Part shown: piece by piece, positions 58,667-60,039 of the stretch
Position numbering within the stretch: the stretch's first letter is position 1
Layout of the letters: every line of letters starts with the position of its first letter
Assembly (NCBI RefSeq): GCF_016026235.1
Contig: NZ_CP065613.1
Length of the DNA stretch: 64,000 nucleotides
Strand: one strand, 5' to 3'
From: Escherichia coli
GTDB lineage: Bacteria > Pseudomonadota > Gammaproteobacteria > Enterobacterales > Enterobacteriaceae
Program-made: the position numbers and the translations under genes
Notes under the pieces: model-generated
The model's input: only the letters and a program-made list of their open reading frames with translations
Databases searched by the model: none
What the model was told of the DNA's origin: nothing

Positions 58667-58801
58667 TCAGCAGCTCGGATAAGAGCGGAAGTGCTGACGA
58701 ACATGTTCGAGCTCACCGAAACGTATGCGGCAGTAACTGCGCACATAAACCGGCTTGTCGTGTTCGTAGATGAAGTCATCGCGATTAACATCGTGAGCCA
58801 T
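58667..58801 (-). CDS. Small protein (44 aa) with strong SD and own terminator
   Basis: Own translation MAHDVNRDDFIYEHDKPVYVRSYCRIRFGELEHVRQHFRSYPSC; aggag SD 6-8 nt upstream; not in the supplied ORF track in this frame. Confidence 0.5.
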   Translation of the reverse strand: MAHDVNRDDFIYEHDKPVYVRSYCRIRFGELEHVRQHFRSYPSC

Positions 58802-58974
58802 AGCTTTTCTCCTGTTTTTGTATACAGCCTGTTTACCCGAACAGGTTGTAGTTTGTTGGGAGAACCGCTATCCTTGGCTTGCGGTTGCCAAGGGTGTAGC
58901 GGTAGGTAATCCTCCATACACTTCGGAAATACTGGATATATTTCCGACCCAAAAAGCCCCGTTCCCTCGGGGCT

Positions 58975-59508
58975 TTATTCTTTTGTTCCGCCATCAATCA
59001 TCGCAAAAGATTCCACAATCAGACTGATACGCTTGGCTTCATCTTTTGTCAGGTCGCGAGGCAGGTTGCCAATGGTGACGATAAGATCTCCGCGCAATGG
59101 AATCGGCAGTTCAAATGTTTTTACACCAACCTGTACGTCAGCTACCGCCTTCTTCTTAGGTGCCATCTTTTTACGCTCCTTTTTTTTATTTACATCACCA
59201 ACTGACACATTAATCTCACCATTCTGGTAGGAGATAAATTTATCAATAGCACTTTGCATTCGGCTTTTGTATGCCTGCAAAGATGATTCAGAAGGTTTGC
59301 TTTCTGCTGAGTCTGCGTACGAACTTGCTAAGTTGGCAACGCTATAATCACGGATATCGGCATCGGTGAAATCCGACCCAAGAACAGTAAGAAGGCGCAG
59401 GGAAGAGTCACGGAGATTGCGGGCTGTAGCATCATTGACGATACCAAGCTCAGGAAGCATCTGTAAGAAGTCCTGAAATGCTTTGATGGTGTAGCTTTTG
59501 GTTTGCAT
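58975..59508 (-). CDS. Hypothetical protein (177 aa), immunity-region cargo
   Basis: ORF with SD; lysine-rich central segment KKKERKKMAPKKK; hairpin/terminator-like structures downstream. Confidence 0.55.
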   Translation of the reverse strand: MQTKSYTIKAFQDFLQMLPELGIVNDATARNLRDSSLRLLTVLGSDFTDADIRDYSVANLASSYADSAESKPSESSLQAYKSRMQSAIDKFISYQNGEINVSVGDVNKKKERKKMAPKKKAVADVQVGVKTFELPIPLRGDLIVTIGNLPRDLTKDEAKRISLIVESFAMIDGGTKE

Positions 59509-59697
59509 AAAAAAGCCTCATACAGTTGATGAGACAATACTAATTTGATCGTCAAAACAAATCAAGACCCAAGAAACGATCGTTGATTCCTTTCTTTGTG
59601 ACAATACAGTCAAATCAAGTTTTACAAGGATTACTTTTCTTCGATTACATTAAAGGCCGCACTTCTGCGACCATCCATCACCAAAATGTCTCTTCAC

Positions 59698-60039
59698 TCA
59701 TCCGAAGAAGCAGCAATCCGGGTCAGCACGCACAAGCTCAAGCGCATCAGTCAGCGAAAGTTCAGTACTGTACTGATGCCATTTCATATCCTTCCGCATC
59801 CAATAGATTTTCCATCTATCCAGAGAACGTATGTACTTGATTCTTGCTGATGGCAGGATGTTTGTTTCACCTGGGTTGCCCTGCCACACGGGGCGCTGTT
59901 CGCCGATATCTATCGTTTGGTCATTGATGCTATAAACAATATCCAGTTCATTGCGGATATGTTCAGGCGGCCTTATGCTTTCAATGAATTGGTGAACTTC
60001 TTTTTTGACCGCTTGATATTCAAGGTCAGTGAACGCCAT
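59698..60039 (-). CDS. Hypothetical protein (113 aa), immunity-region cargo
   Basis: ORF 37 bp downstream of cI-like stop with strong SD (gaggagga). Confidence 0.55.
   Translation of the reverse strand: MAFTDLEYQAVKKEVHQFIESIRPPEHIRNELDIVYSINDQTIDIGEQRPVWQGNPGETNILPSARIKYIRSLDRWKIYWMRKDMKWHQYSTELSLTDALELVRADPDCCFFG

What the first reader, a model, noticed from the sequence alone, without database searches (positions are those of the whole stretch)
58667..60039. Three uncharacterised genes in the rexAB-equivalent slot of the lambda-like prophage immunity region
Directly downstream of the cI-like repressor and co-oriented with it lie a 113-aa ORF, a 177-aa ORF and a 44-aa ORF with strong SD and its own terminator, separated by hairpin-rich spacers. 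In lambda this slot holds rexA/rexB, and in other lambdoid phages it holds superinfection-exclusion or abortive-infection cargo expressed from the lysogen. I recognise none of the three proteins, so this is the best candidate here for an undescribed prophage-encoded defence or exclusion module.
Basis: partly seen in the sequence, partly recalled or inferred. Interest (0 to 1): 0.72.

Follow-up and report, generated by a model that had tools for sequence, protein, structure and literature searches.

The report
Two separate prophage cargo units beside cI
The three small genes after the prophage repressor are real, but they are two independent swap-in cargo units: a gene already listed as a candidate defence gene, and an undescribed widespread pair made of a DNA-binding protein and a tiny protein locked behind a folded RNA leader; what either unit does is untested.

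Summary
Three conserved genes lie on the minus strand between the cI-like repressor (60077-60814) and oL/pL, each followed by a terminator-like hairpin.

1. The 113-aa protein is not unrecognisable. It is DUF3024 (PF11225) and matches PADLOC's untested defence candidate PDC-S43.

2. The three genes are not one module.
- DUF3024 follows cI in many Stx phages and is followed there by different cargo: the Stk/PD-T4-6-like kinase block, a ParA-like ATPase, or PDC-M24-like genes.
- The 177-aa and 44-aa genes travel as an autonomous pair in other places: Salmonella prophage ends, nin regions, satellite-like elements and a marine mini-element.

3. The 177-aa protein has an integrase core-binding fold, with no catalytic domain, plus a near-invariant C-terminal module. 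Its family has about 1,100 clusters.

4. In every member examined, a structured leader follows about 150-190 nt downstream, then a strongly conserved small ORF. These small ORFs fall into three unrelated classes. For the 44-aa class dN/dS is 0.02-0.07, and its leader pairs with the ribosome-binding site and start codon.

The slot is a cargo hot spot that holds validated defence genes in relatives. A defence or exclusion role is therefore plausible, but it rests on location only.

The parts
60077..60814 (-). cI-like repressor (HTH + S24 peptidase). It is context only, and defines the upstream edge of the cargo slot.
   Evidence: phrog_4 E = 8e-54 and phrog_6201. Annotated as an XRE family or CI-like repressor in relatives.
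59698..60039 (-). Unit 1: DUF3024 gene (113 aa), equal to PADLOC candidate PDC-S43. It starts 37 nt after the cI stop codon with no intervening terminator, so it is probably co-transcribed with cI.
   Evidence: PF11225 E = 2.7e-31. PDC-S43 E = 7.2e-42, full length. phrog_3467. AF2 pLDDT 89.5, helix / five-strand sheet / helix. No terminator was found between 60040 and 60077.
59655..59672 (-). Weak terminator-like hairpin after DUF3024. It coincides with the point where similarity to 933W-like phages ends, so it marks a module junction.
   Evidence: Terminator scan. The 97.5% identity to Stx2a phages covers only query positions 1255-1689, which is window 59654-60088.
59537..59565 (-). Putative own promoter of the 177/44 cassette: TTGATT, 17-nt spacer, TAGTAT. 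It scores 8/12 to consensus and is below the scanner's threshold.
   Evidence: Read from the sequence. An equivalent TTGATT-17-TATTAT lies upstream of the Salmonella copy, which sits in an unrelated context. This is inference, not a scanner hit.
59515..59535 (-). Hairpin followed by T6, immediately before the start codon of the 177-aa gene. The stem contains the SD (GAGG). It could act as an insulating terminator for read-through from cI/DUF3024, or as an SD-masking hairpin.
   Evidence: Terminator scan. The stem is kept, with changes, in SH2026Stx1 (GCCTCAT/ATGAGGC) and in Salmonella (CACCTCAT/ATGAGGTG).
58975..59508 (-). Unit 2, gene A: a 177-aa protein. It has an N-terminal integrase core-binding (SAM-like) fold (about residues 1-100), a basic linker (KKKERKKMAPKKK) and a near-invariant C-terminal module (PIPLR..L.V.I.NLP.DLT..EA.RI). 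There is no recombinase catalytic domain.
58953..58976 (-). GC-rich intrinsic terminator hairpin overlapping the stop codon of the 177-aa gene. It reads as a terminator on either strand.
   Evidence: reported on the + strand; minus strand: AAAGCCCCG-AGGGAA-CGGGGCTTTTT. Conserved in all classes of the family, with covarying stem positions (CG<->UA at 8/6 sequences).
58802..58952 (-). Structured leader of the 44-aa gene. It has several hairpins and a long-range helix in which ATAGCGGTTCTCC pairs with the SD and AUG (GGAGAAAAGCTAT). The same segment can alternatively pair with an upstream stretch.
   Evidence: MFE -76.7 kcal/mol, z = -7.5. 27 leaders from all classes give z = -2.7 to -7.1. SD/AUG helix: 79.7% of cells paired against 30-48% in slid controls, 3 pairs with changes on both sides, 0 of 500 shuffles reach the covariation score. 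Alternative helix: 79.8% paired. Covariance model R1 finds the leader only downstream of 177-like genes. No Rfam family matches.
58667..58801 (-). Unit 2, gene B: a 44-aa hydrophilic protein (class A small ORF). Conserved core: V.V..Y.R...G.LE.V..H.RS. It has no hydrophobic segment.
   Evidence: phrog_21154 E = 2e-31. 84-100% identical beside partners that are only 43-45% identical. dN/dS 0.02-0.07. No Pfam, NCBIfam, PADLOC or PDB match.
58628..58651 (-). Intrinsic terminator ending the cassette (AAACCCGGC-TTCCGC-GCCGGGTTT, then TCTTT). It insulates pL from upstream transcription, as timm does in lambda.
   Evidence: Read from the sequence. Conserved in Salmonella, Raoultella, Yersinia and Enterobacter copies.
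58419..58447 (-). pL-like promoter (TTGACC, 17-nt spacer, TATCTT) within the oL region. It defines the downstream edge of the cargo slot.
   Evidence: Promoter scan. The N-like gene follows at 57787-58170.

Best explanation
The space between cI and oL/pL holds two independent accessory units expressed from the prophage, not one three-gene system.

Unit 1 is a DUF3024 gene read through from the cI (pRM) transcript. It encodes a small cytosolic alpha/beta protein of a protein-binding type of fold. It heads an exchangeable cargo array in many lambdoid prophages and is already listed as the untested defence candidate PDC-S43.

Unit 2 is a self-contained cassette with a putative promoter of its own and two terminators. 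Its first gene encodes a 177-aa DNA-binding protein. This protein has the core-binding domain of a tyrosine recombinase without the catalytic domain, a basic linker and an invariant C-terminal module. Its second gene encodes a 44-aa protein under very strong purifying selection. The ribosome-binding site and start codon of this second gene are locked in a conserved, roughly 150-nt structured leader that lies behind a terminator.

Most likely mechanism (inferred, not shown): Unit 2 is a gated-effector module. The 177-aa protein is made in the lysogen and binds DNA through its fast-evolving N-terminal domain, acting as sensor or regulator. The small protein is kept untranslated until terminator read-through and a refolding of the leader expose its start site. 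Once made, it acts on a highly conserved cellular or phage target, either to exclude a superinfecting phage or to penalise loss of the element.

Shown: gene reality, modularity, protein folds, the conserved pairing of the two genes, and the leader structure. Inferred: expression in the lysogen, the trigger, the target and any defence phenotype.
For: Modularity:
- DUF3024 is 97.5% identical in many 933W-like Stx phages, where it is followed by a 153-aa gene, Stk and a 54-aa gene instead.
- Elsewhere it is followed by a ParA-like ATPase, P63C, PDC-M24-like genes or nothing.
- The 177/44 pair occurs without cI or DUF3024 next to DinI in Salmonella, with the same spacing. It also occurs in a primase/SSB satellite-like element, in nin regions and in satellite-like islands that carry primase and capsid genes.
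- The pair is found directly after cI without DUF3024 in L048 and L050.
- In L024 the same DUF3024 (98% identical) is followed by a diverged pair, 40% and 57% identical.

Pairing of the two genes:
- All examined 177-like genes are followed by a terminator hairpin, a structured spacer and a small ORF of class A, B or C.
- This holds even for a remote Tara Oceans homologue and a Rahnella one.

Fold.

Selection: dN/dS 0.02-0.07 for the 44-aa gene. The C-terminal module is 79-100% identical against 21-31% for the N-terminal domain.

Leader.

Slot is defence-rich in relatives: Stk matches PD-T4-6/mad6, BstA, PDC-M24.

DUF3024 = PDC-S43. It comes from the 145 untested 'guilt-by-embedding' candidates. 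A published precedent for a terminator read-through, translationally inactive leader in front of a ~45-codon ORF in a lambdoid prophage is IsrK-orf45 (PMC4825925).
Against: - No experiment or expression data bear on any of the three genes.
- The 177/44 proteins hit nothing in PADLOC, NCBIfam or Pfam.
- A DNA-binding domain plus a tiny hydrophilic protein is not a typical defence architecture.
- The pair also sits in a four-gene Rep_trans+integrase mini-element and between the replication and capsid modules of satellites. That points at least as much to element regulation or maintenance as to defence.
- The small-ORF slot is filled by three families with no detectable homology to one another, while the C-terminal module of the partner stays the same. 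This argues against a simple toxin-antitoxin contact between the two proteins.
- The own promoter is a weak consensus match, below the scanner's threshold.
- The covariation evidence rests on 14 related sequences.
- In class B leaders the SD is predicted to be mostly open.
- The AF2 model of the conserved C-terminal module has low confidence.
Confidence: 0.5

Rival explanations
1. One reading: the three genes form one lysogen-expressed defence or exclusion operon that works like RexAB.
For: The three genes are co-oriented in the rexAB-equivalent slot. The trio is conserved as a block in SH2026Stx1 and in 5 complete E. coli genomes. A second, diverged trio exists in L024.
Against: Each gene has its own terminator-like hairpin. 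In most loci DUF3024 and the 177/44 pair are found apart: 36 of 53 viral loci with a 177-like gene lack DUF3024, and the DUF3024 loci lack the pair. Sequence identity to 933W-like phages breaks exactly at the hairpin after DUF3024. None of the three proteins matched any Pfam-A family other than DUF3024 or any PADLOC model other than PDC-S43, so nothing Rex-like was found. No hydrophobic segment is visible.
Confidence: 0.07
2. The 177/44 cassette is a regulatory or maintenance module of mobile elements, not an anti-phage system. The core-binding-fold protein would be a site-specific DNA-binding regulator, for example of integration/excision, replication or late genes. The small zinc-ribbon-like or basic protein would be its riboregulated co-factor.
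Against: The pair sits in classic moron positions with its own terminators: after cI, and next to DinI at prophage ends. It is present in only 5 of 5,426 complete E. coli genomes while the same cI allele does without it, so it is dispensable for the phage life cycle. It shows no similarity to the prophage's own integrase.
Confidence: 0.28
3. The 44-aa gene and its leader form a type I-like toxin locus (an addiction module). A translationally silent, stable mRNA encodes a small toxic protein, and the 177-aa gene is only a neighbour or a transcriptional regulator.
For: The leader sequesters the SD and AUG and is strongly structured. The ORF is small and extremely conserved. The cassette has its own terminator.
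Against: The protein is hydrophilic with no membrane segment, unlike most type I toxins. No antisense promoter was predicted across the ORF or leader. Association with the 177-like gene is invariable across large evolutionary distances, so that gene is not a mere neighbour.
Confidence: 0.12
4. DUF3024 is part of the immunity circuitry rather than cargo. It would be a small protein that modulates repressor cleavage or RecA, in the manner of PsiB or DinI, and so stabilise lysogeny.
Confidence: 0.08

Closest known systems
Lambda RexA/RexB
   Same: Same genomic position, between cI and oL/pL, co-oriented with cI and ended by a terminator that insulates pL. Presumably expressed in the lysogen.
   Different: No sequence or profile similarity was found. 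Rex is a two-protein system whose RexB is a membrane protein (own knowledge). None of the three proteins here has a hydrophobic segment, and the three genes are two separate units.
933W-type Stk kinase block (PD-T4-6 / mad6-like), downstream of cI
   Same: Occupies the same slot. It begins with the same DUF3024 gene at 97.5% DNA identity. The kinase matches validated defence families.
   Different: The window has no kinase. After DUF3024 it carries the 177/44 cassette instead. The 153-aa gene of the Stk block is unrelated to the 177-aa protein (hhalign probability 0.2%).
PADLOC PDC-S43 (phage defence candidate, single gene) / Pfam DUF3024
   Same: The 113-aa protein matches both models over its full length.
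   Different: PDC systems are untested predictions made by 'guilt by embedding'. No mechanism or phenotype is attached to the name.
Gifsy-1 IsrK-orf45-anrP locus (PMC4825925)
   Same: A lambdoid prophage locus in which read-through of a terminator gives a very stable, translationally inactive structure that hides the RBS of a ~45-codon ORF. Alternative helices switch translation on.
   Different: No IsrK match in Rfam. [quoted passage not shown] Here, the 44-aa protein is under strong purifying selection and is followed by a terminator, not by a coupled gene.
Type I toxin-antitoxin loci (hok/sok, tisB/istR-1 type)
   Same: A small ORF whose SD is sequestered in a stable, structured mRNA; a stand-alone terminator; carried by mobile elements.
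   Different: The protein is hydrophilic. No antisense RNA gene is evident. The ORF is always partnered with a core-binding-domain protein gene.
Integrase-derived DNA-binding regulators (SPbeta MrpR, phi3T SroF) and UniProt 'Core-binding (CB) domain-containing proteins' / DUF5343 of about 180 aa
BstA abortive-infection protein
   Same: Lies in the same cI-downstream slot in a Yersinia prophage, directly upstream of a 177-like gene.
   Different: An unrelated protein (KilA-N + BstA_C), absent from the window.

Membership tests
Pfam DUF3024 (PF11225) | Full-length match to the family HMM above threshold | tested here: met
   113-aa protein: residues 4-113 match model positions 2-112 of 112, E = 2.7e-31. 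Homologues carry PF11225. RefSeq annotates it as a DUF3024 domain-containing protein.
PADLOC PDC-S43 (candidate defence system) | Match to the PDC-S43 HMM (single-gene system) | tested here: met
   E = 7.2e-42, residues 1-113 against profile positions 1-115 of 115.
PADLOC PDC-S43 (candidate defence system) | Protects against phage | not testable with these tools
   The source preprint describes the 145 PDC systems as untested. The only other paper that names PDC-S43 merely lists it as predicted in one O157 strain.
Lambda RexAB | Sequence or profile similarity to RexA or RexB | tested here: not met
   The three proteins matched no Pfam-A family other than DUF3024 and no PADLOC model other than PDC-S43. 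I did not check that these libraries contain Rex models.
Lambda RexAB | Position between cI and pL, co-oriented with cI, terminator before pL | tested here: met
Tyrosine recombinase (integrase) | Core-binding (SAM-like) helical domain | tested here: met
Tyrosine recombinase (integrase) | C-terminal catalytic domain (Pfam Phage_integrase, PF00589) | tested here: not met
Type I toxin-antitoxin | Small hydrophobic (membrane) toxin | tested here: not met
   The 44-aa sequence has no hydrophobic stretch: it has 7 acidic and 7 basic residues and 4 His.
Type I toxin-antitoxin | Cis- or trans-encoded antisense RNA antitoxin | tested here: inconclusive
   No + strand promoter was predicted over 58660-58990. 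A consensus scan cannot exclude one.
Type I toxin-antitoxin | Translationally inert, highly structured toxin mRNA | tested here: met
   z = -7.5. SD/AUG helix with covariation.
Rfam IsrK / IsrJ (Gifsy-1 locus) | Covariance-model match at or above the gathering score | tested here: not met
   No hit in window 56500-62000 at E <= 1. The only related signal is a sub-threshold isrJ hit (27.8 bits against a gathering score of 37, E = 0.4) over the terminator hairpin of one Enterobacter locus.
177-like / small-ORF cassette (defined here) | A core-binding-fold protein with the C-terminal PIPLR...NLP.DLT..EA.RI module, then a terminator hairpin, a structured spacer of 150-190 nt, a small ORF and a terminator | tested here: met
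   Window. The same layout is seen in Salmonella, Raoultella, Yersinia, Enterobacter, 53 viral contigs, Rahnella and a Tara metagenome.

The most novel reading that the evidence does not exclude
The core-binding-domain protein, its structured leader and the small ORF form a previously undescribed, widespread two-component system of mobile elements. The family has about 1,100 protein clusters and reaches from Enterobacterales prophages to marine mini-elements. An integrase-derived DNA sensor controls an RNA-gated small effector, with interchangeable and unrelated effector peptides. The system would act as a new kind of abortive-infection, exclusion or addiction device. DUF3024 would separately be a real single-gene defence or immunity factor heading the cargo array.
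Probability: 0.25. Interest if true: 0.8.

Novelty: new variant of a known kind. Interest (0 to 1): 0.55.

Why it matters
The cI-to-pL slot of lambdoid prophages is a proven source of exclusion systems, including Rex, Stk and BstA. This work turns a vague 'three unknown genes' into two defined and testable objects.

DUF3024/PDC-S43 is present in 389 of 5,426 complete E. coli genomes, many of them Shiga-toxin strains. It sits at the head of exchangeable cargo that includes a validated kinase defence. Learning what it does would say something about how Stx prophages protect or control their hosts.

The 177/44 cassette is absent from the Pfam-A, NCBIfam and PADLOC libraries searched here, and its leader is absent from Rfam 15. 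Yet its family is large, and the evidence marks it as functional: a gene pairing kept over large evolutionary distance, dN/dS of 0.02-0.07, a covarying RNA leader, and a recombinase DNA-binding domain reused without catalysis.

If it proves to be a defence or addiction module, it would add an RNA-gated small-effector architecture to the known repertoire. If it proves to be regulatory, it would be a new control element shared by phages, satellites and small integrative elements.

Tried and rejected
- CagZ, DUF7088 and DUF6517 hits for the 177-aa protein (E >= 0.009): chance level.
- The 177-aa protein as a recent copy of the prophage's own integrase domain: BLASTP E = 5 against Int at 50297-51367. 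Rejected.
- tRNA or tmRNA in the spacers: none.
- Known RNA family for the leader: none in the window or in five other loci.
- Common origin of the three small-ORF classes: hhalign probability below 1%. A zinc-finger (CHHC) reading of the 44-aa protein was dropped because C24 and C44 are not conserved.
- The 153-aa gene of the Stk block as a relative of the 177-aa protein: rejected. PHROG calls it RuvC-like.
- PDB profile search with the 44-aa family: nothing below E = 0.9.
- Literature. No paper in the library contains 'DUF3024' or 'DUF5343'. 'PDC-S43' appears only in a list. The supplements held for the PADLOC preprint do not show the entry; the files are truncated. Brenes & Laub 2025 is not held. 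No supplement text is held for the DefensePredictor preprint.
- The search for related loci with the broad alignment A5 failed for lack of a conserved stretch. The closer alignment A1 worked.
- Covariance model R1 does not reach class C, L024 or L076 leaders, which are too divergent. The statement that all classes have a structured leader therefore rests on per-sequence folding z-scores, not on one common model.
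Full report
**1. What is there**

All features lie on the minus strand, in this order:
- a cI-like HTH+S24 repressor, 60077-60814;
- a 113-aa ORF, 59698-60039, starting 37 nt after the cI stop codon, with a strong SD and no terminator in between;
- a weak terminator-like hairpin, 59672-59655;
- a 177-aa ORF, 58975-59508;
- a GC-rich terminator overlapping its stop codon, 58976-58953;
- a 150-nt spacer;
- a 44-aa ORF, 58667-58801, with an AGGAG SD;
- a canonical intrinsic terminator, 58651-58628;
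- a pL-like promoter, 58447-58419;
- an N-like antiterminator gene, 57787-58170.

This is the lambda rexAB position. Terminator-like sites are enriched in the region: 9 found against 3.0 +/- 1.8 in shuffles. All three ORFs match full-length PHROG families of unknown function and are annotated genes in RefSeq. The window is 99.8% identical here to a prophage of E. coli O39:NM F8704-2. It is 94.9% identical to Stx1 phage SH2026Stx1.

**2. The 113-aa gene**

It is DUF3024 (PF11225, E = 2.7e-31) and matches PADLOC's candidate PDC-S43 over its full length (E = 7e-42). PDC systems are 145 untested predictions obtained from genes embedded in RM, BREX and DISARM loci.

The gene is in 389 of 5,426 complete E. 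coli genomes. What follows it varies:
- the 153-aa / Stk kinase / 54-aa block in 933W-like phages, and the same block at a DinI-adjacent prophage end in Erwinia;
- a ParA-like ATPase in Salmonella P22-like prophages;
- P63C in Yersinia ruckeri;
- DUF6978+DUF1828, which match PDC-M24A/B;
- nothing, in Rahnella.

Identity between the window and 933W-like phages (97.5%) covers only window 59654-60088. It ends at the hairpin after DUF3024. DUF3024 is therefore its own unit, at the head of an exchangeable array.

**3. The 177/44 pair is a separate, autonomous cassette**

In Salmonella the pair lies next to a DinI-family gene near pepN, far from any repressor. It has the same 172-nt spacing and the same two terminators. 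Upstream there is an equivalently placed -35/-10 (TTGATT-17-TATTAT, against TTGATT-17-TAGTAT at window 59565-59537). I read this from the sequence; it falls below the scanner's threshold.

The pair also occurs in a primase/SSB satellite-like element of Raoultella/Klebsiella. It occurs after cI without DUF3024 (L048, L050). It occurs after cI and BstA in Yersinia. It is also found in nin regions and in satellite-like islands carrying primase and capsid genes.

In E. coli it is rare: 5 of 5,426 complete genomes, always as the trio. One further E. coli prophage (L024) has the same DUF3024 (98% identical) followed by a diverged pair, 40% and 57% identical. Other E. coli carry the same cI allele with a Clp-fold protease gene or a 98-aa gene instead. 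The slot is a recombinational cargo hot spot.

**4. The 177-aa protein**

It has no Pfam, NCBIfam, PADLOC or PDB sequence match. AF2 gives a confident four-helix N-terminal domain, with pLDDT 80-93 over residues 1-100.

There is no catalytic domain. Residues 101-127 are a basic linker. Residues 128-170 carry an invariant motif (F.LPIPLR..L.V.I.NLP.DLT..EA.RI...I.SFA), which AF2 models poorly as a monomer. A profile search of 1.84 billion representative proteins finds 1,097 clusters at E <= 1e-3 and 417 at E <= 1e-10. Nearly all of the 150 best-scoring hits are 155-200 aa and match over the full length.

Across the family the N-terminal domain falls to 21-31% identity with the window protein. 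The C-terminal module stays at 79-100%. The protein is not a copy of the prophage's own integrase.

**5. The small ORF and its leader**

Every 177-like gene I examined is followed 150-190 nt downstream by a small ORF on the same strand, ending in a terminator. There are three classes.
- Class A is 40-45 aa with core V.V..Y.R...G.LE.V..H.RS (phrog_21154). The window's 44-aa protein belongs here.
- Class B is 44-46 aa with a Cys-rich CPxCG...C pattern.
- Class C is 57-58 aa with RW..CRFR...LDAH.YGY..W.F.V (phrog_33859).

The classes show no detectable homology to one another (hhalign probability below 1%). The pairing holds even for remote homologues. A Tara Oceans member sits in a small element with Rep_trans and an integrase. 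It is followed by a class C-like ORF, as is a Rahnella member.

Class A proteins stay 84-100% identical beside partners that are only 43-45% identical. Their dN/dS is 0.02-0.07 with dS up to about 1. This is strong protein-level selection, not recent transfer.

The spacer is strongly structured. The window's folds at -76.7 kcal/mol, z = -7.5. All 27 leaders tested, from all three classes, give z = -2.7 to -7.1.

In class A and B leaders, which are homologous to each other, the segment ATAGCGGTT..CC can pair with the SD and AUG. There, 79.7% of cells are paired against 30-48% in slid controls. Three pairs change on both sides, and 0 of 500 shuffles reach the covariation score. The same segment can instead pair with an upstream stretch (79.8% paired, weaker covariation). 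This is the geometry of a translational switch.

RNAalifold also finds compensatory changes in the terminator stem and in an internal hairpin. A covariance model built on the 3' half finds the leader in 19 loci. Every hit lies directly downstream of a 177-like gene. There is no second full-scoring hit in the 64-kb window or in the other loci searched. No Rfam family matches. With 14 related sequences the covariation evidence is moderate, not conclusive.

**6. How it most likely works**

Shown:
- there are two independent units;
- the three genes are real;
- DUF3024 has a binding-module type of fold;
- the 177-aa protein has a recombinase DNA-binding fold without catalysis;
- its gene is always paired with a small, strongly constrained ORF;
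- that ORF lies behind a terminator and a structured leader that pairs with its SD and AUG.

Inferred:
- DUF3024 is read through from pRM with cI.
- The cassette has its own weak promoter. The hairpin plus T6 at 59535-59515 would stop read-through from cI, while transcripts from the cassette promoter would start inside the hairpin's 5' arm and escape termination.
- The 177-aa protein is made constitutively and binds DNA through its fast-evolving N-terminal domain.
- The small protein is made only after terminator read-through and refolding of the leader, and then acts on a highly conserved target.

A published precedent for this logic in a lambdoid prophage is IsrK-orf45-anrP of Gifsy-1 (PMC4825925). 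It is not homologous, and its small ORF is only a translational coupling device.

Whether the output is phage exclusion, element addiction or element regulation cannot be decided here.
- The location argues for defence. Relatives carry Stk (PD-T4-6-like), BstA and PDC-M24 genes in the same slot.
- The presence of the pair in minimal integrative elements, and between replication and capsid modules, argues for maintenance or regulation.
- The unchanged C-terminal module across different small-ORF classes argues against a simple toxin-antitoxin contact.

**7. Comparison with what is known, and verdict**

The slot is positionally equivalent to RexAB, but nothing in it resembles Rex. DUF3024 is a member of PF11225 and of PDC-S43 by HMM; the defence function implied by the PDC name is untested. 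The 177-aa protein has the core-binding domain of tyrosine recombinases but fails the defining catalytic-domain test, so it is not a recombinase. The 44-aa locus shares the structured, SD-sequestering mRNA of type I toxins. It does not share their hydrophobic peptide, and no antisense RNA gene is evident.

The interesting part is the 177/44 cassette with its leader. It is a large and clearly functional family that none of the protein-family or RNA libraries searched here describes.

Interest is 0.55. The cassette is a well-defined, testable new object, but at present it has only contextual evidence for any role.

Noticed in passing
window 61721-63259: An IS110-family transposase gene (62063-63259, minus strand; NF033542 E = 1e-68) sits where the phage replication gene should continue. 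The O-like ORF is only 115 aa here, whereas the 99.8%-identical prophage in E. coli F8704-2 has an intact 939-nt replication gene. This prophage copy is probably replication-defective.
   Followed up: partly
window 56951-57009 (-): Rfam Lambda_thermo (cIII thermoregulator element), 88.5 bits, well above the gathering score.
   Followed up: no
window 57102-57785 (-): The gene just downstream of N (227-aa ORF, phrog_1965) is annotated in RefSeq as 'Nmad5 family putative nucleotide modification protein'. It is another accessory gene of unclear role in the early left operon.
   Followed up: no
window 48880-51367: Left end of the prophage: a tyrosine integrase (50297-51367, minus strand) lies next to a host ybhC-like acyl-CoA thioester hydrolase gene (48880-50163). 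The prophage therefore sits in the lambda-att neighbourhood.
   Followed up: partly
window 58802-58952 (-); also L003, L007, L013, L038-L041, L048-L050, L069-L075: The leader between the 177-like gene and the small ORF behaves as an RNA element of its own, absent from Rfam 15. It has covarying helices and two mutually exclusive pairings of the ATAGCGGTT segment. A covariance model (R1) detects it only in this context.
   Followed up: partly
L013 5472-5523 (+): A sub-threshold Rfam hit to isrJ (27.8 bits against a gathering score of 37, E = 0.4) lies over the end of the 177-like gene and its terminator hairpin in an Enterobacter locus. It is probably terminator resemblance. I note it because IsrJ belongs to the Gifsy-1 isrK-orf45-anrP-isrJ transcript.
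   Followed up: no
L002 2309-4386; L016 5001-7130: DUF3024, a 153-aa gene (PHROG: RuvC-like), the Stk kinase (PD-T4-6/mad6-like) and a small ORF of about 50 aa form a conserved four-gene block. It occurs both after cI in 933W-like phages and at a DinI-adjacent prophage end in Erwinia. In that lineage DUF3024 may work together with the kinase.
   Followed up: partly
E. coli genomes, hits H67-H71: 164 records carry a version of the DUF3024 gene at 80-90% identity. In the five sampled (H67-H71, about 82%) it is unannotated or called hypothetical. 84-aa truncated forms also exist (P0096-P0099). These may be decayed copies or an unrecognised allele.
   Followed up: no
L079 3001-6504: A Tara Oceans contig carries what looks like a minimal integrative element: a 177-like gene, a class C-like small ORF, a Rep_trans gene and an integrase, next to a tRNA gene.
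   Followed up: partly
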